Notes: generated by a model not told the origin, from the letters alone. 64,000 nt of DNA from an uncultured Rhodospirillaceae bacterium (GCA_964458415.1 CAYWIT010000011.1:11739-75738), one strand, 5' to 3'; shown: positions 33,167 through 39,128, counted from the stretch's first letter. Translations and numbers: made by a program.

Positions 33167-33496
33167 TTAGCCTATCGCGGCATCGGTTTCCCAGACAATC
33201 ATCTTGCCCAGAGAGCTCTCCACACAGATTCTTTCGATAATCTCCTCTGTCACCATGGCCTCATGCGAAAGAAAAATAATCGCCCTATCCGGATTTTCCA
33301 TGGCGTGACGCAAATCAGCCGGTGTTGTGACCAGATCCTCCGTTTGCGCTTGACGGATCATATCCGCCTGCCAGCTGCCCACAGGCAAACGGCAAATGCT
33401 GCTCCTGTGACAAAGCCCCTGTTGTGCCCTCTCGGCCGCTTCCTGAAAAGCCATCACTTCCAGAATATCCTGCTGCTGTTTATCGCTTATCTTCAC
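33167..33496 (-). CDS. hypothetical 109-aa protein, translationally coupled to the AAA+ gene
   Basis: GTG start preceded by AAGGAGAG at a 5-nt spacing, 22 nt after the AAA+ stop. I recognise no family. Confidence 0.5.
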   Translation of the reverse strand: MKISDKQQQDILEVMAFQEAAERAQQGLCHRSSICRLPVGSWQADMIRQAQTEDLVTTPADLRHAMENPDRAIIFLSHEAMVTEEIIERICVESSLGKMIVWETDAAIG

Positions 33497-33518
33497 AGTA
33501 TCTCTCCTTTTCCCGCTT

Positions 33519-36170: not shown

Positions 36171-36230
36171 GCTATCTCTCCCTTTATTCCAGCTCTAGTT
36201 TGCCCTAATCACGTTTAATTTTTGTTAACA

Positions 36231-39128
36231 CTAATCAAGTTTTTTATGAAGCTGGCGGAGTCTCTCCCGCTTTTTTGCATCCGGCTCCGTCTTGACCTTG
36301 AAGCTGCGCACACGCTTGAGCATCAAACGGGACAGTTCCAGAGGGATTTCCGATGGATCCGTTCCCCGCATCAGGCCCACCAGTTTTCCACCGGTCCTGT
36401 CAATAACCGTCTGAAAAGCTCTTTCCATGTATGTCTGACCAGACCCCGGATTCAGGACAGCAACATCAATAGTCAGGTTTTTTGCATTACGGGACACGAT
36501 TTCAAGCTTGCTGACCGTCTCGTCAAAATCCCCGATATCCCCGTCAGAAAAGACCAGCAAGTGGGAACTGCCGCTCATCGTGCCATTCTTGTTCCTATGC
36601 AACGCCATCGCCTCGACCGTATTGACGATGCCGGGCGCCAGATTCGTTCCACTGCCCGTCCCGCGCTTGAGCATTTCAAGTTTTTTTCCGACTTCGCGCA
36701 AATTCGAATCCGGCGTTGCTATGATCAAAGGCTGCGGATCACCCCACATGACGATATAGGCATCTATCCCGGCCTTGCGCGCCGCCATATAGACAATCAC
36801 CGAGCTTTGCAAGGCGGCATCCATCGCGGAAACCCCGTTGCCAAGCTGCATGCTTGGCATGCTCCCCGAGCCGTCAATCATGGCCACAATTTCAATCGTG
36901 CTTTCCGTTGAAACAGTTTTATCTTCTCTGAACTTTTTAAAGTCATCCGTTGTCAGCTTTTCATGCGCCGCCTGACGAAACCGCGTTTCCAGCATTTTAT
37001 CACGATCAAGCCGATCAAGGACGTCGCCATCCTCCGCCGTGAAATCAAGCGTTTTCGACTGCTGTTGCATCTGTCGCCGCTGCTCTTTACGAATACTCCG
37101 GAACGATTCCGCCACCTGATTGATGACAGGAGCCAACTGCAGCACACGCTTGTTAAAGTCGCTCCAGTCCCCCTTGGCAAGACTGGCCAGATCAACGCCC
37201 CGCTGCCGCCCGCCTTGTGGCTGTCGCATGGAATTGCCCTTGGGCATATCCTTGGCGGCATCCTTCATCTCTTTTTTCTTCTCGTCGGAGATCTTATCCT
37301 CATTGATCTCCTTGTTTTTCAGGTCTCCCGCTTTTTTAGGATCCGTCTTTTGATCAGGGTCCTGATCCCATCCACCGGGGGCCGGCTTCTCTTTCTTTTT
37401 GTCTCCCGCGTCATCATCCTGATCATTTCCGGCACCTTTATTTTTATTCTCGTCGGTACCTTCCTGTTCACGCCCTTCGCCGGGATTTTCAGACATGTCT
37501 CCTATGGCGTCATCCAGATCATCATCCATATCCATCGGGATACCGTCTCCCCCGTCTGATTCTCCCCATTCGCCCTGATCATCCTTGCCACCCTGCCCCT
37601 GGCTGCTTTGCCCCTGCCCTGACTTGTCCTGATTTTTCTGGTCCTGTTTTTTTTGTTCCAGCCTCTTTTCCATCTCGTTCTGGAACTCATTGATCAGGAC
37701 ATCGGCAAATTTTTTAAAATAAACGTCCCAGATCTGATCCATAATTTTTCCCCGCGCCAGCGAGGTTTCACGCACTTTCTCCCGGTAATGCGTCTTGCCA
37801 AAATGGCGATCAGCCGGCAAAGGCTGCAAGTGCCGAACTCCGTCCTCTGCCTGCATCAAGGCCATCAGATATTCAAAAGCCGTTTTCCCCTTCGCCTCGG
37901 GGATACCGGAAACATCTATCGTCTGGTTAATATCTTCCTTGAAAACGCCGAGCCTGTTCCAGTTTTTGTCCTTGTCGGAGAAAAGGCCATTCGCCTGAAA
38001 AAATGCCAGCAATACAGCGTTTGTCATCTCGCTATATAATTTTCCGGCCGCCTGTTTTGAAATATTGCCTGCATTTATCTTTTTAACGTCGCTTTTGTCC
38101 AACGGCTTCTCAAGGGAACCGATCTCCTCTTCGGCTTCTTTCTTTTTCTTGTCCTTAAATATATCCCATATACTGTCATCCCCGCTGCCAGCAGGACGAT
38201 CATTATATATCTCCCCCGCATTGGCACCGCGCTTCAAGGCTTCGCCGAACCCCATCAAGGTCACATTCATGTGATTGATTGAATATCCGAAATCCTGGGG
38301 CAGCAAATCGCTCATATTCGCCGCAAACTGGTTCACGCAGTTATCTTCCGCACTGTTCCAGAAACGATGCCGCAGCTTCCATTCAATGGCATCCCGCGCC
38401 AGTTCTATTTGTTGTTCCTTGGTCAGCTTTGGACGTTTTTCTCCCTTTTTGCGGAGAATATAAGGCTCTACCTTCTTGAACAATTCCTGCATGGCCTCCG
38501 GATATACCATGCTCAGCTCGCTGTGGCCCTCTTCATGCAGATTTACCGAGCGCACATGCTCAAAGCCGACCATCAGACTGTAATAAAGATCAAGATTGAT
38601 ATGATTTTTAATCGGGTCATGATAAAACCAGCTGCCCGGCTGTCCATAGGCAAAGGTCACATCATCATTCTGAAGCGATGTCGCAATAACACGCGCCGTA
38701 CGAATTTGCTCGTTACGGACGGCAATTGTATCCTGTAACTGTTGCCAAAGCGTACTTTTGGCGATTGGAGATTTGCCCTCATCCATCATTCGCGTCAGCG
38801 TTGCCGCCCAGAGCAATTGCTTCCCCGGCGTGTCCAGCTCGATATCCAAAACAGATTCAACTTCACGTTTTTCCGCAGCGGTCGCGGCAATGGCCTGTTG
38901 CGCCCCTATATCCGCCCCCTCAACCCTGACCAGACGGCTGACAAAATCATCATACTGTTCTTGTGTGAAGACACGCAGCTGAAAAGCCTGTTTTAATTCG
39001 ATGCGCAATTGCGTGATCGGCTGCTGATAAATCCGATCCAACTCTTCGCCGCCCCCGAATACCTGACTCGCTGCCTCTTTCAGGCTCTCCAGCATATATA
39101 TCACCTTGCTATTATATTCTTTCGTCAC
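36231..39128 (-). CDS. HExxH-motif / acidic-linker / C-terminal VWA (MIDAS) protein (965 aa)
   Basis: HEEGH at 38523-38537. D/E/K/Q/G low-complexity region of about 150 aa (37209-37655). VWA fold at the C-terminus with MIDAS DGSGS (36861-36875) plus GTNLAPG and LLVFSDGD. The start is either GTG 39128 or ATG 39095 (preceded by AAGGTG). Confidence 0.7.
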   Translation of the reverse strand: MTKEYNSKVIYMLESLKEAASQVFGGGEELDRIYQQPITQLRIELKQAFQLRVFTQEQYDDFVSRLVRVEGADIGAQQAIAATAAEKREVESVLDIELDTPGKQLLWAATLTRMMDEGKSPIAKSTLWQQLQDTIAVRNEQIRTARVIATSLQNDDVTFAYGQPGSWFYHDPIKNHINLDLYYSLMVGFEHVRSVNLHEEGHSELSMVYPEAMQELFKKVEPYILRKKGEKRPKLTKEQQIELARDAIEWKLRHRFWNSAEDNCVNQFAANMSDLLPQDFGYSINHMNVTLMGFGEALKRGANAGEIYNDRPAGSGDDSIWDIFKDKKKKEAEEEIGSLEKPLDKSDVKKINAGNISKQAAGKLYSEMTNAVLLAFFQANGLFSDKDKNWNRLGVFKEDINQTIDVSGIPEAKGKTAFEYLMALMQAEDGVRHLQPLPADRHFGKTHYREKVRETSLARGKIMDQIWDVYFKKFADVLINEFQNEMEKRLEQKKQDQKNQDKSGQGQSSQGQGGKDDQGEWGESDGGDGIPMDMDDDLDDAIGDMSENPGEGREQEGTDENKNKGAGNDQDDDAGDKKKEKPAPGGWDQDPDQKTDPKKAGDLKNKEINEDKISDEKKKEMKDAAKDMPKGNSMRQPQGGRQRGVDLASLAKGDWSDFNKRVLQLAPVINQVAESFRSIRKEQRRQMQQQSKTLDFTAEDGDVLDRLDRDKMLETRFRQAAHEKLTTDDFKKFREDKTVSTESTIEIVAMIDGSGSMPSMQLGNGVSAMDAALQSSVIVYMAARKAGIDAYIVMWGDPQPLIIATPDSNLREVGKKLEMLKRGTGSGTNLAPGIVNTVEAMALHRNKNGTMSGSSHLLVFSDGDIGDFDETVSKLEIVSRNAKNLTIDVAVLNPGSGQTYMERAFQTVIDRTGGKLVGLMRGTDPSEIPLELSRLMLKRVRSFKVKTEPDAKKRERLRQLHKKLD

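What the first reader, a model, noticed from the sequence alone, without database searches (positions are those of the whole stretch)
33167..39128. Operon of a giant VWA/MIDAS protein, a giant MoxR/CobS-class AAA+ ATPase and a small coupled ORF: candidate uncharacterised system
The gene order on the minus strand is a 965-aa protein (HExxH, acidic linker, C-terminal VWA with the full MIDAS set DGSGS...T...D), a 60-nt gap, an 883-aa AAA+ protein (GDAAFGKS, IFLDEF), a 22-nt gap, then a 109-aa ORF with a strong RBS. AAA+/VWA pairs are an established functional unit (CobS-CobT, NorQ-NorD, CbbQ-CbbO, MoxR-VWA, and the MoxR + DUF2201 metallopeptidase-VWA pair). Here both partners are about 1.5-2.5 times the usual size, the ATPase has about 550 aa of unassigned sequence, and no cobN, nor or cbb client gene is nearby. 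The acidic-region-then-MIDAS order mirrors the tail of eukaryotic midasin, split over two genes. The block is AT-richer than its surroundings, has a CtrA-type box in its promoter, and faces a divergent channel gene. Plausible roles are a metal or cofactor insertase/remodeller with an unknown client, or an NTPase-driven conflict (defence) module.
Basis: partly seen in the sequence, partly recalled or inferred. Interest (0 to 1): 0.8.

Follow-up and report, generated by a model that had tools for sequence, protein, structure and literature searches.

The report
Undescribed CtrA-boxed AAA+/VWA-protease operon
Three real, co-transcribed genes encode a large motor ATPase, a partner with a metal-dependent binding site plus a zinc-protease motif, and a small protein; they form an undescribed gene module of Micavibrio-like bacteria that appears wired to the cell-cycle regulator CtrA, and what it acts on is unknown.

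Summary
All three minus-strand ORFs are conserved genes.

- **965-aa protein** (more likely 954 aa from the ATG at 39095): an HExxH domain, a 165-aa acidic disordered linker, and a C-terminal VWA domain. Its MIDAS residues are invariant in 38 homologues. The best structural matches are the Rea1/midasin MIDAS domain and NorD.
- **883-aa protein**: an AAA+ ATPase whose core resembles NorQ, CbbQ and phage MoxR/CobS. Walker A lysine, sensor 1 and the arginine finger are invariant in 78 distant relatives; Walker B is near-invariant. About 530 aa match nothing known.
- **109-aa protein**: a new family found in 35 loci.
- **Databases**: Pfam, NCBIfam and PADLOC name none of these beyond VWA.

The trio is the core of a discrete family of about 350 clusters, nearly all from uncultured Alphaproteobacteria. 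Micavibrio-like genomes carry two paralogous operons. Distant copies sit on integrative islands. The next gene varies: an MsbA-like exporter here, ankyrin-type proteins elsewhere, and once a protein hypermutated by a retroelement.

A perfect CtrA box lies upstream of the operon in 26 of 33 distinct loci (0.8 expected).

Most likely it is a cell-cycle-controlled AAA+/MIDAS remodelling machine with a protease arm and an unknown client. It is a new variant of a known kind. It is not CobST, and in this genome it is not a compositional island.

The parts
36231..39128 (-). Gene for the zincin-motif / acidic-linker / VWA-MIDAS protein (ORF 965 aa from GTG 39128; likely true start ATG 39095, 954 aa)
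   Evidence: AF2 model mean pLDDT 80. VWA_2 Pfam match at residues 748-863, E 2e-6.
38523..38537 (-). HExxH motif (HEEGH, residues 198-202), inside a helix that follows three beta-strands. E261 on a later helix is a candidate third zinc ligand.
   Evidence: H198, E199 and H202 are invariant in 32 close homologues. The motif is kept in type-1, island and L033 copies but degenerate (REIGS/REIGH) in the type-2 paralogue. E261 is kept in nearly all full-length copies.
37149..37643 (-). Acidic low-complexity linker (residues 496-660)
   Evidence: 26% D+E, net charge -16, length 127-276 aa in homologues. pLDDT is below 50 in several stretches.
36234..36896 (-). VWA domain with a complete MIDAS site (D752-x-S754-x-S756, T828, D862)
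   Evidence: Foldseek top hits are Rea1/MDN1 MIDAS (E 1e-5) and NorD VWA in NorQD complexes. The MIDAS residues are conserved in 38 homologues from all clades.
33519..36170 (-). Gene for the 883-aa AAA+ ATPase. It has an N-terminal beta-rich domain (~1-100), an AAA+ core (~100-360) with a ~100-aa insertion between Walker A and B, a helical region (~360-640) and a C-terminal alpha/beta domain (~646-880).
   Evidence: AF2 model mean pLDDT 85. Foldseek hits on the AAA+ core only. No Pfam or NCBIfam family. The family has 354 representatives in 1.84 billion proteins, nearly all full length.
35814..35837 (-). Walker A (GDAAFGKS, residues 112-119)
   Evidence: K118 is invariant, and G112 and G117 near-invariant, in 78 diverse family members.
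35358..35375 (-). Walker B (IFLDEF, residues 266-271)
   Evidence: D269 and E270 are near-invariant. N332 (sensor 1 position) and R350 (arginine-finger position) are invariant in 78 members.
33167..33496 (-). Gene for the 109-aa third subunit (new family)
   Evidence: Conserved in 35 loci in every clade. W42 is invariant; A16, C91, K98 and E103 are near-invariant. No Pfam or PDB match. It lies 14-57 nt from the ATPase gene in most loci.
39149..39163 (.). Perfect CtrA-type box TTAA-N7-TTAA, 54 nt upstream of the likely ATG of the VWA gene
   Evidence: Six perfect boxes in the window against 0.82 expected. A perfect box lies within 260 nt upstream of the VWA gene in 26 of 33 non-identical related loci, against 0.78 expected; the density is 153 times that of the rest of those loci.
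31225..33084 (-). MsbA/glucan-exporter-like ABC half-transporter. It is a conserved downstream neighbour of the trio in this paralogue, possibly co-transcribed.
   Evidence: ABC_membrane plus ABC_tran. The score is below every NCBIfam equivalog cut-off. Present in all type-1 loci with enough flank. No terminator-like site lies between it and the small ORF; one follows its stop at 31193-31207. The gap is 82 nt here but about 350 nt in many relatives.
39285..40127 (+). Divergent KirBac-like 2-TM protein without a K+ selectivity filter. It is a conserved neighbour in this paralogue only.
   Evidence: A profile of 13 orthologues matches only KirBac3.1 chains (E 0.012) at the TM2/cytoplasmic-domain junction. 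It sits in a conserved divergent position in 17 loci.

Best explanation
The three genes encode the core of an undescribed, vertically inherited AAA+/VWA machine of Micavibrio-like Alphaproteobacteria.

Shown:
- The 883-aa protein has an AAA+ core with conserved catalytic residues. Its fold is closest to MoxR-class ATPases (NorQ, CbbQ, CobS-like, Rea1).
- The partner ends in a VWA domain with an intact MIDAS site, most like the Rea1 MIDAS domain and NorD. An acidic disordered linker precedes it, as in CobT, BchD and midasin.
- The partner's N-terminal domain carries a conserved HExxH...E zincin-type motif.
- A 109-aa protein is always encoded with them.
- A perfect CtrA box precedes the operon throughout the family.

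Inferred by analogy with NorQD, CbbQO, CobST and Rea1:
- The ATPase forms a ring that grips the VWA protein.
- The MIDAS ion captures an acidic residue of a client protein.
- ATP hydrolysis pulls on or twists the adaptor to remodel that client.
- In this paralogue the zinc-protease domain adds a cleavage step. The result works like an AAA-protease split over two chains.
- The small protein is a third subunit or regulator.
- In related operons, client choice is probably delegated to the next gene. That gene encodes ankyrin-type or C-type-lectin-type binding proteins. Here it is instead a conserved MsbA-like exporter, which may be the client or a downstream partner.
- The CtrA box implies expression at a defined cell-cycle or developmental stage.

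The client is unknown.
For: Genes and motifs. The genes are real and the motifs conserved.

Fold assignment.
- ATPase: NorQ TM 0.50-0.55, CbbQ 0.50, plus McrB, Rea1 and HslU. Phage MoxR-like, AAA_5 and CobS proteins also match.
- VWA: Rea1/MDN1 MIDAS E 1e-5 and NorD within NorQD complexes.
- Mechanistic precedent for a ring plus an inserted VWA finger or shaft: PMC13036017 and bioRxiv 10.64898/2026.07.21.739949.

Core trio and neighbours.
- The core trio VWA -> ATPase -> small protein is tightly spaced: VWA with the ATPase in 51 of 55 loci, the small protein in 35.
- Chromosomal synteny is conserved down to 38% ATPase identity.
- Two paralogous operons occur in the same MAGs, shown by shared locus-tag prefixes Q8K65 and OXT65.
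- The partner gene varies: ankyrin repeats at Pfam E 6.5e-19 and 1.7e-14; ANK-like by profile; a retroelement-diversified lectin-type protein.

CtrA box. It is conserved in 26 of 33 distinct loci against 0.78 expected. A PleD equivalog lies two genes away.
Against: - No client, cofactor or metal-centre enzyme gene is linked, so the remodelling target is a guess.
- Assignment of the ATPase to the MoxR class rests on fold matches of modest significance (E about 1e-3). Pfam AAA_3, AAA_5 and CbbQ_C do not match. hhalign against E. coli RavA gives 2% probability.
- The HExxH motif is degenerate in the type-2 paralogue, so proteolysis cannot be the universal activity.
- Coupling to the ABC exporter is loose in many relatives, with a gap of about 350 nt.
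- CtrA binding is inferred from a sequence motif only.
- Ring formation, the VWA-ring contact and the role of the small protein are untested.
Confidence: 0.5

Rival explanations
1. An NTPase-driven conflict (defence) module. A binding protein senses an invader, the AAA+/VWA pair transduces the signal, and the HExxH domain (or the exporter) acts as effector.
For: - Distant relatives (29-33% ATPase identity) lie on integrative islands. These carry integrases, PrimPol, serine recombinases, a tRNA-Ser border and a methylase.
- In L002/L003 the gene directly after the ATPase is the target of a diversity-generating retroelement: 193-nt TR/VR pair, 16 of 16 mismatches at TR adenines.
- Its family occurs in 1-3 copies around the pair in other contigs.
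- MoxR-vWA ternary conflict systems with retroelement-diversified sensors are a published precedent (PMC7159879, PMC10907252).
Against: - No PADLOC match for any component of the window or of the island versions.
- The window's copy is in conserved synteny across a whole lineage and is not compositionally distinct.
- Two paralogues are fixed in the same genomes.
- It carries a conserved cell-cycle promoter motif.
- It has no sensor-type partner gene and no recognised toxic effector.
- The family is absent from phage, plasmid and IMG/VR collections.
Confidence: 0.2
2. A peptide or protein maturation-and-export system. The HExxH domain processes a precursor, possibly the 109-aa protein, with help from the AAA+ unfoldase, and the adjacent MsbA-like ABC transporter exports the product.
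For: - An intact HExxH motif occurs specifically in the paralogue that is followed by the ABC exporter.
- No terminator-like site separates the small ORF from the exporter in the window.
- Zincin peptidase plus small-precursor modules attached to MoxR-vWA systems are described in PMC7159879.
Against: - The small protein is equally conserved in the type-2 operon, which has neither an exporter nor an intact HExxH motif.
- It is conserved along its whole length, unlike a leader-plus-core precursor.
- The exporter lacks a peptidase domain and any secretion partners. It is separated by about 350 nt in many relatives.
Confidence: 0.12
3. Ordinary but diverged CobS/CobT cobaltochelatase subunits, or another known metal-insertion pair such as NorQD or CbbQO, with the client encoded elsewhere.
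For: - The acidic linker followed by VWA mirrors CobT. The fold class is shared with CobS, NorQ and CbbQ.
- A CobD/CbiB-family gene lies just upstream of the type-2 paralogue in 12 loci.
Against: - No NCBIfam or Pfam CobS, CobT, CobT_C, CbbQ_C, NorD or CbbO match. CobT_C matches 1 of 32 members at E 0.072.
- The sizes and extra domains differ: an HExxH domain, and about 530 extra residues in the ATPase.
- No cobN, nor or cbb genes occur in the window or in any of about 70 related loci.
- The partners are ankyrin or lectin proteins.
- The CobD/CbiB gene sits among unrelated housekeeping genes (flgI, fliX, dksA) and only beside one paralogue.
Confidence: 0.03

Closest known systems
NorQ-NorD and CbbQ-CbbO (MoxR-class AAA+ with VWA adaptor)
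   Same: - Adjacent genes for an AAA+ ATPase and a VWA/MIDAS protein.
- The ATPase core has its best TM-scores with NorQ (0.50-0.55) and CbbQ (0.50).
- The VWA domain matches NorD inside NorQD complexes.
- The likely mechanism is a ring that grips and twists the adaptor (PMC13036017).
   Different: - The ATPase is about three times larger, with a ~100-aa insertion between Walker A and B and about 530 unassigned residues.
- There are no sequence-profile matches.
- The VWA protein carries an HExxH domain.
- A 109-aa third subunit is present.
- No NOR or Rubisco client is linked.
- The operon carries a CtrA box.
CobS-CobT of aerobic cobaltochelatase (and BchI-BchD)
   Same: The adaptor has the same layout: an N-terminal domain, then an acidic linker, then a C-terminal VWA/MIDAS domain. 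The ATPase is of the same fold class, and phage CobS proteins are among the structural hits.
   Different: - No CobS, CobT or CobT_C profile match.
- No cobN is linked.
- The N-terminal domain is different and carries HExxH.
- The ATPase is far larger.
Rea1/midasin (MDN1)
   Same: The top structural matches of the VWA domain are the Rea1/MDN1 MIDAS domains (E 1e-5; TM up to 0.66). The order D/E-rich region then MIDAS is the same. Rea1 is among the hits to the ATPase core.
   Different: - Midasin has six AAA modules and the MIDAS tail in one 5000-aa chain. Here there is one AAA+ module per chain and the tail is a separate protein.
- No UBL-domain client was identified.
- This system is bacterial.
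MoxR-vWA ternary conflict systems (VMAP, iSTAND, FtsH and beta-propeller types; Kaur et al. 2020, PMC7159879)
   Same: - A three-gene logic: ATPase, vWA protein and a third protein.
- Variable associated binding or effector proteins.
- A link to diversity-generating retroelements in some relatives, as in PMC10907252.
   Different: - The third component is a 109-aa protein, not VMAP, iSTAND or FtsH.
- The VWA domain is C-terminal rather than N-terminal with C-terminal effectors.
- The ATPase is not recognisable as MoxR by sequence.
- The window's copy is syntenic, vertically inherited and carries a CtrA box.
- PADLOC finds nothing.
MoxR plus DUF2201 (N-terminal putative metallopeptidase, C-terminal VWA-like) pairs
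   Same: The adaptor has the same order of parts: an HExxH domain first and a VWA domain last, encoded next to an AAA+ gene.
   Different: No match to DUF2201_N or DUF2201 in any of 32 family members at E < 0.1. This adaptor is much larger, has an acidic linker, and comes with a small third subunit.
FtsH-type AAA-metalloproteases
   Same: They combine an AAA+ motor with an HExxH zinc protease.
   Different: In FtsH both parts are in one membrane-anchored chain of the classical AAA clade. Here they are on two soluble proteins joined, presumably, through a VWA domain. This is a functional analogy only.

Membership tests
AAA+ ATPases, MoxR/AAA_5/CobS class | Walker A lysine, Walker B acidic pair, sensor 1 and arginine finger conserved | tested here: met
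   K118, N332 and R350 are invariant, and D269 and E270 near-invariant, in 78 diverse members.
AAA+ ATPases, MoxR/AAA_5/CobS class | Sequence-profile match to AAA_3, AAA_5 or CbbQ_C, or to a characterised MoxR protein | tested here: not met
   No Pfam or NCBIfam hit. AAA_5 matches only 5 of 42 members, at E >= 0.029. hhalign against E. coli RavA gives 2% probability. The profile finds nothing against PDB sequences.
AAA+ ATPases, MoxR/AAA_5/CobS class | Fold of the ATPase core closest to MoxR-class members | tested here: met
   NorQ TM 0.50-0.55 and CbbQ 0.50, at E about 1e-3. HslU has a lower E-value but TM of only 0.3-0.4. In BFVD the hits are phage MoxR-like COG0714, dynein-related AAA and CobS proteins.
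AAA+ ATPases, MoxR/AAA_5/CobS class | Helix-2 insert and pre-sensor-1 beta-hairpin | tested here: inconclusive
   The order of secondary-structure elements in the AF2 model fits. Strands 149-154 and 248-253 flank a ~100-aa insertion before Walker B, and a hairpin at 295-317 precedes the sensor-1 strand 327-332. No 3D superposition was possible.
AAA+ ATPases, MoxR/AAA_5/CobS class | Adjacent gene for a VWA/MIDAS partner | tested here: met
   The VWA gene is adjacent in 51 of 55 loci that hold the ATPase.
VWA/MIDAS domain proteins | DxSxS...T...D MIDAS motif and VWA fold | tested here: met
   VWA_2 above the curated cut-off. Structural hits to Rea1 MIDAS and NorD. The motif is conserved in 38 homologues.
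CobS-CobT cobaltochelatase | CobS, CobT or CobT_C profile matches, and a cobN or B12 gene context | tested here: not met
   No matches. CobT_C matches 1 of 32 members at E 0.072. No cobN in the window or in related loci. A CobD/CbiB-family gene lies beside the type-2 paralogue only.
MoxR-vWA ternary conflict systems (PMC7159879) | Third component is a VMAP, iSTAND, FtsH-type or beta-propeller protein, and the vWA domain is N-terminal with C-terminal effectors | tested here: not met
   The third gene encodes a 109-aa protein with no match. The VWA domain is C-terminal. PADLOC finds nothing. VMAP-specific profiles were not available.
DUF2201-type metallopeptidase-VWA adaptors | Pfam DUF2201_N or DUF2201 match | tested here: not met
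   None in 32 members at E < 0.1. The order HExxH domain first, VWA last, is shared.
Zincin metallopeptidases | HExxH on a helix after a beta-sheet, plus a third ligand; zincin fold; zinc-dependent activity | tested here: inconclusive
   The motif and E261 are conserved, and the secondary-structure order fits. There is no peptidase hit by Pfam, PDB sequence search or among the top 50 Foldseek hits. Activity cannot be tested with these tools.
CtrA regulon | TTAA-N7-TTAA box in the promoter, conserved among orthologues | tested here: met
   Box at 39149-39163. Found in 26 of 33 distinct upstream regions against 0.78 expected.
CtrA regulon | CtrA binding and CtrA-dependent, cell-cycle-dependent transcription | not testable with these tools
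   This needs ChIP-seq or expression data from a Micavibrio-like organism.

The most novel reading that the evidence does not exclude
The family is a split AAA-metalloprotease or remodeller with exchangeable substrate-recognition subunits. The ATPase ring and the MIDAS/zincin adaptor form a constant engine. The neighbouring ankyrin-type or lectin-type protein chooses the target; in at least one mobile element that protein is hypermutated by a retroelement. The whole machine is switched on by CtrA at one stage of the cell cycle of predatory or host-dependent Alphaproteobacteria. This would be a programmable, cell-cycle-gated protein-targeting machine, and a free-living bacterial counterpart of the midasin principle.
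Probability: 0.15. Interest if true: 0.85.

Novelty: new variant of a known kind. Interest (0 to 1): 0.66.

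Why it matters
AAA+/VWA pairs are a widespread but poorly understood class of protein-remodelling machines, and only a handful have known clients: Rubisco, NO reductase, the chelatases and pre-ribosomes.

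This family adds a deeply divergent branch that current domain databases do not see. It has four unusual traits:
- a zinc-protease motif on the adaptor;
- a dedicated small subunit;
- interchangeable ankyrin or lectin partner proteins, one of them a retroelement target;
- a CtrA box conserved across the family.

The last trait would tie an AAA+/VWA machine to the alphaproteobacterial cell cycle. The search of the paper library found nothing linking CtrA to such a pair.

The family is concentrated in Micavibrio-like epibiotic predators, with two fixed paralogues. It may therefore bear on the little-known developmental cycle of these bacteria. It also gives a simple two-chain system in which to study the acidic-linker-plus-MIDAS principle of midasin.

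Tried and rejected
Searches that found nothing:
- **Pfam, NCBIfam, PHROGs and PADLOC** on the three proteins gave only VWA_2 and P-loop noise. Pfam on all aligned members gave the same.
- **Profile searches against all PDB sequences** were empty for the ATPase, the VWA protein and the small protein.
- **hhalign against E. coli RavA and ViaA** was not significant.
- **Phage GenBank, IMG/VR and plasmid searches** gave no match, so a phage or plasmid origin was dropped.
- **Literature searches** for Micavibrio, CtrA, CobS/CobT or HExxH together with MoxR/VWA found no description of this family.

Readings considered and rejected:
- **Compositional island**: rejected.
- **CobST orthology**: rejected.
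- **A myosin-like P-loop match** (E 0.037): dismissed as a local P-loop resemblance once the AAA+ fold was clear.
- **HslU as closest relative**: it has the lowest Foldseek E-value but poor TM-scores. The match probably reflects its own insertion between Walker A and B.

Full report
**1. The observation**

The gaps are 60 and 22 nt. AAGGAG lies 7 nt before the GTG of the small ORF.

The quoted motifs are all present:
- HEEGH at residues 198-202;
- DGSGS at 752-756, with T828 and D862;
- GDAAFGKS at 112-119;
- IFLDEF at 266-271.

The public gene call and the homologue consensus start the first protein at the ATG at 39095, giving 954 aa.

The linker (residues 496-660) is 26% Asp+Glu and is predicted disordered. 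Its length varies from 127 to 276 aa among homologues, which explains most of their size range.

The claim that the block is AT-richer than its surroundings does not hold in any useful sense. It is 50.3% GC against 52.0% for the window, at the 15th percentile of 6-kb windows.

**2. What the proteins are**

Sequence libraries see almost nothing.
- Pfam finds only VWA_2 at the C-terminus of the first protein.
- The ATPase and the small protein match no Pfam, NCBIfam, PHROG or PADLOC family.
- Scanning every aligned homologue does not change this.
- Profile searches of all PDB sequences are also empty.

AlphaFold models built on family alignments are good: mean pLDDT 85 for the ATPase and 80 for the VWA protein.

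*The ATPase.* Foldseek against the PDB matches the region of about residues 100-450 to AAA+ proteins.
- The best TM-scores are for NorQ (0.50-0.55) and CbbQ (0.50).
- McrB and Rea1 are also listed.
- HslU has the lowest E-values but poor TM-scores.
- Against predicted viral structures the hits are phage MoxR-like (COG0714), dynein-related AAA and CobS proteins.
- The core carries an insertion of about 100 aa between Walker A and Walker B, and a hairpin before the sensor-1 strand.
- In 78 family members as little as 17-29% identical to the window protein, K118, N332 and R350 are invariant, and G112, G117, D269 and E270 nearly so.

This is therefore an active-type AAA+ ATPase. The N-terminal ~100 residues and the C-terminal ~430 residues (a helical region plus an alpha/beta domain) match nothing.

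*The VWA domain.* Its best matches are the MIDAS domains of Rea1 and human MDN1 (E 1e-5, TM up to 0.66). NorD within NorQD complexes comes next. The MIDAS residues are conserved in 38 homologues from every clade.

*The N-terminal half of the VWA protein.*
- Three strands are followed by a helix carrying HExxH, and a later helix carries a conserved Glu (E261). That is the layout of a zincin metallopeptidase, but no fold match could be obtained.
- HExxH is intact in the window's clade, in island-borne relatives and in a Rickettsiales MAG.
- It is degenerate (REIGS, REIGH and similar) in a second large clade. Proteolysis therefore cannot be the universal function.

*The small protein.* It defines a new family with an invariant Trp and near-invariant Ala, Cys, Lys and Glu.

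**3. The family and its contexts**

A word-indexed search found 72 ATPase homologues, all 860-930 aa and all unnamed. They come from Alphaproteobacteria MAGs, including Micavibrio sp..

A full HMM scan of 1.84 billion cluster representatives found 354 (180 below E 1e-30). Nearly all are 850-1000 aa and matched end to end, so this is a discrete family.

In GTDB species representatives, 28 loci were found, and all are MAGs:
- Micavibrio or 'Alphaproteobacteria bacterium';
- some labelled Bdellovibrionales, because NCBI files Micavibrio there;
- one Rickettsiales;
- one Magnetovibrio.

None was found in GenBank phages, IMG/VR or plasmids.

I clustered the ORFs of about 70 loci. The VWA protein accompanies the ATPase in 51 of 55 loci. 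The small protein is present in 35 loci across all clades, and the three genes are spaced 14-57 nt apart in most loci.

The next gene varies.
- **Type 1 (the window).** An MsbA/glucan-exporter-like ABC half-transporter follows. A divergent KirBac-like 2-TM gene without a selectivity filter lies upstream. The locus sits next to polyhydroxyalkanoate genes. The gap to the exporter is 67-90 nt in some genomes (82 nt here, with no terminator-like site) but about 350 nt in many others.
- **Type 2.** A ~500-aa internally repeated protein overlaps the stop codon of the small gene. Its profile matches only ankyrin-repeat proteins, and weakly. Synteny is conserved: flgI, fliX, dksA and a CobD/CbiB-family gene on one side; an inositol monophosphatase-family gene (Inositol_P) and zapA on the other.
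- **Both types occur in the same MAGs**, shown by locus tags Q8K65_00140 and Q8K65_09855, and OXT65_04135 and OXT65_12500. They are ancient paralogues.
- **Other variants** are followed by bona fide ankyrin-repeat proteins, with Ank_2 at E 6.5e-19 and 1.7e-14.
- **Island-borne relatives** (29-33% identity) lie among integrases, PrimPol, serine recombinases and a tRNA-Ser.

In L002/L003 the 291-aa gene right after the ATPase ends in a 193-nt repeat. The partner copy lies between the reverse transcriptase and bAvd genes. All 16 mismatches fall on adenines of the template copy. That is the signature of a diversity-generating retroelement. The same protein family has a lectin-type variable C-terminus and occurs in one to three copies around the pair in other contigs.

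**4. The CtrA box**

The window holds six perfect TTAA-N7-TTAA sites against 0.82 expected. All lie in or at the edge of intergenic regions. One is at 39149-39163, 54 nt upstream of the likely start codon.

In related loci, a perfect box lies within 260 nt upstream of the VWA gene in 26 of 33 non-identical upstream regions. Shuffling those regions gives 0.78 expected. The box density there is 153 times that of the rest of the loci, and in most loci it is the only perfect box in about 20 kb.

The box is found in both paralogue types, in the Rickettsiales locus and in the island version L002, with different spacer sequences. In type 2 the upstream gene is co-directional, so the box belongs to the operon and not to the KirBac-like gene. 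A PleD equivalog lies two genes away in the window.

The motif conservation is shown. CtrA binding itself is inferred.

**5. How it most likely works**

*Shown:* an active-type AAA+ of the MoxR/CobS fold class; an adaptor with an intact MIDAS site behind an acidic linker; an HExxH...E motif; a constant small subunit; variable binding-module neighbours; a conserved CtrA box.

*Inferred from NorQD, CobST, CbbQO and Rea1* (PMC13036017; bioRxiv 10.64898/2026.07.21.739949):
- The ATPase forms a ring that engages the VWA protein.
- The MIDAS ion binds an acidic residue of a client.
- ATP hydrolysis remodels the client through the adaptor.
- In type 1 the zincin-like domain would add cleavage. The logic is that of an AAA-protease split over two chains.
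- The ankyrin and lectin-type neighbours look like client-recruiting subunits.
- In the window's type, the conserved exporter may be the client or a downstream partner.
- Expression would be tied to a cell-cycle or developmental stage.

I put about 0.5 on this overall picture. The AAA+/VWA pairing itself is about 0.85, and CtrA control about 0.6. The client is unknown.

**6. Rivals**

- **Defence or conflict role (0.2).** The island-borne relatives and the retroelement link favour it, and there is published precedent (PMC7159879, PMC10907252). Against it for this copy: conserved synteny, two fixed paralogues, no compositional signal, no PADLOC match even for the island versions, and no recognised effector.
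- **Peptide maturation and export (0.12).** This fits the HExxH-plus-exporter pairing. But the small protein is just as conserved in type 2, which has neither an exporter nor an intact HExxH motif.
- **Ordinary CobST, NorQD or CbbQO (0.03).** The absence of profile matches, the different domains and the absence of client genes refute it. The CobD/CbiB neighbour of type 2 sits among unrelated housekeeping genes.

**7. Comparison and novelty**

It works like a MoxR-VWA pair and shares the acidic-linker-plus-MIDAS design of CobT, BchD and midasin. It fails the sequence-based membership tests for MoxR, CobS/CobT and DUF2201, and its third component does not fit the ternary conflict systems.

I rate it a new variant of a known kind: an undescribed family and architecture within the AAA+/VWA principle.

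It matters for four reasons:
- It extends that principle to a branch that domain databases miss.
- It links the principle to the CtrA cell-cycle circuit.
- It shows interchangeable, sometimes hypermutated, partner proteins.
- It is concentrated in poorly understood predatory Alphaproteobacteria.

**8. Limits**

- All family members seen are from uncultured genomes.
- The pattern-based locus scans can miss relatives.
- No multimer prediction could be run.

Noticed in passing
L002:13315-13507 and L002:14879-15071 (also in L003): This is a diversity-generating retroelement. A 193-nt TR/VR pair differs at 16 positions, all at adenines of the template copy. The variable repeat is the 3' end of the 291-aa gene directly downstream of the island-borne ATPase homologue. 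RVT_1 and bAvd genes lie beside it.
   Followed up: yes
L039:4575-9649, L040, L058, L061: The same ~260-290-aa lectin-type family occurs in one to three copies around the VWA/ATPase pair, with variation concentrated in the last ~50 residues (WYWSxTE...LSCRPVR scaffold). No reverse transcriptase is visible on these short contigs.
   Followed up: partly
Proteins P0034/P0263 and P0064/P0336: Two paralogous operons occur in the same MAGs, shown by shared locus-tag prefixes Q8K65 and OXT65. Type 1 carries the ABC exporter and type 2 the ankyrin-like protein. The window shows only type 1, so a second copy is probably elsewhere in this genome.
   Followed up: partly
Type-2 loci L043-L060, aligned to window residues 198-202 of the VWA protein: HExxH is replaced by REIGS, REIGH, REIGY or REIGK in the type-2 paralogue, while the MIDAS site and E261 are kept. 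This looks like a pseudo-protease version of the adaptor.
   Followed up: yes
window 2181-2195, 18496-18510, 24576-24590, 26814-26828, 39149-39163, 43401-43415: There are six perfect TTAA-N7-TTAA boxes against 0.82 expected, all in or at the edge of intergenic regions. This suggests several CtrA-controlled genes in the window, including the region upstream of the PleD gene.
   Followed up: partly
window 39285-40127 (+): The protein is KirBac-like: two TM helices plus a Kir-type cytoplasmic domain, and the profile matches only KirBac3.1. It has no TxGYG selectivity filter; a conserved FGxNxP occupies the pore-loop region. It is conserved in a divergent position in 17 type-1 loci.
   Followed up: partly
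window 41449-42903 (-) and 43412-44374 (-): A PleD-family response regulator/diguanylate cyclase (NCBIfam equivalog, 625 bits against a cut-off of 474) and an EipB-like protein lie close to the operon. Both point to a Caulobacter-type developmental circuit and envelope functions.
   Followed up: no
L054:2921-6495 and equivalent positions in 9-12 type-2 loci: The type-2 operon is preceded by flgI, fliX, dksA and a CobD/CbiB-family gene (Pfam E 7e-27). The CobD/CbiB neighbour is the only cobalamin-related gene seen anywhere near the family.
   Followed up: partly
L004:13011-13363, L012, L016, L017, L028, L031 (gap between the small ORF and the ABC gene): In many type-1 relatives the small ORF and the ABC exporter are about 320-365 nt apart, against 82 nt in the window. 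The content of this spacer was not examined.
   Followed up: no
window 26984-30235 (+): A 1083-aa protein with only a weak CarboxypepD_reg-like match and no NCBIfam family. Homologues of about 1100 aa occupy a nearby position in L001 and L029.
   Followed up: no
L033:12719-13870: In the Rickettsiales MAG the four-gene operon is followed by a DUF6782 putative metallopeptidase (E 2e-17) with its own HExxH motif.
   Followed up: no
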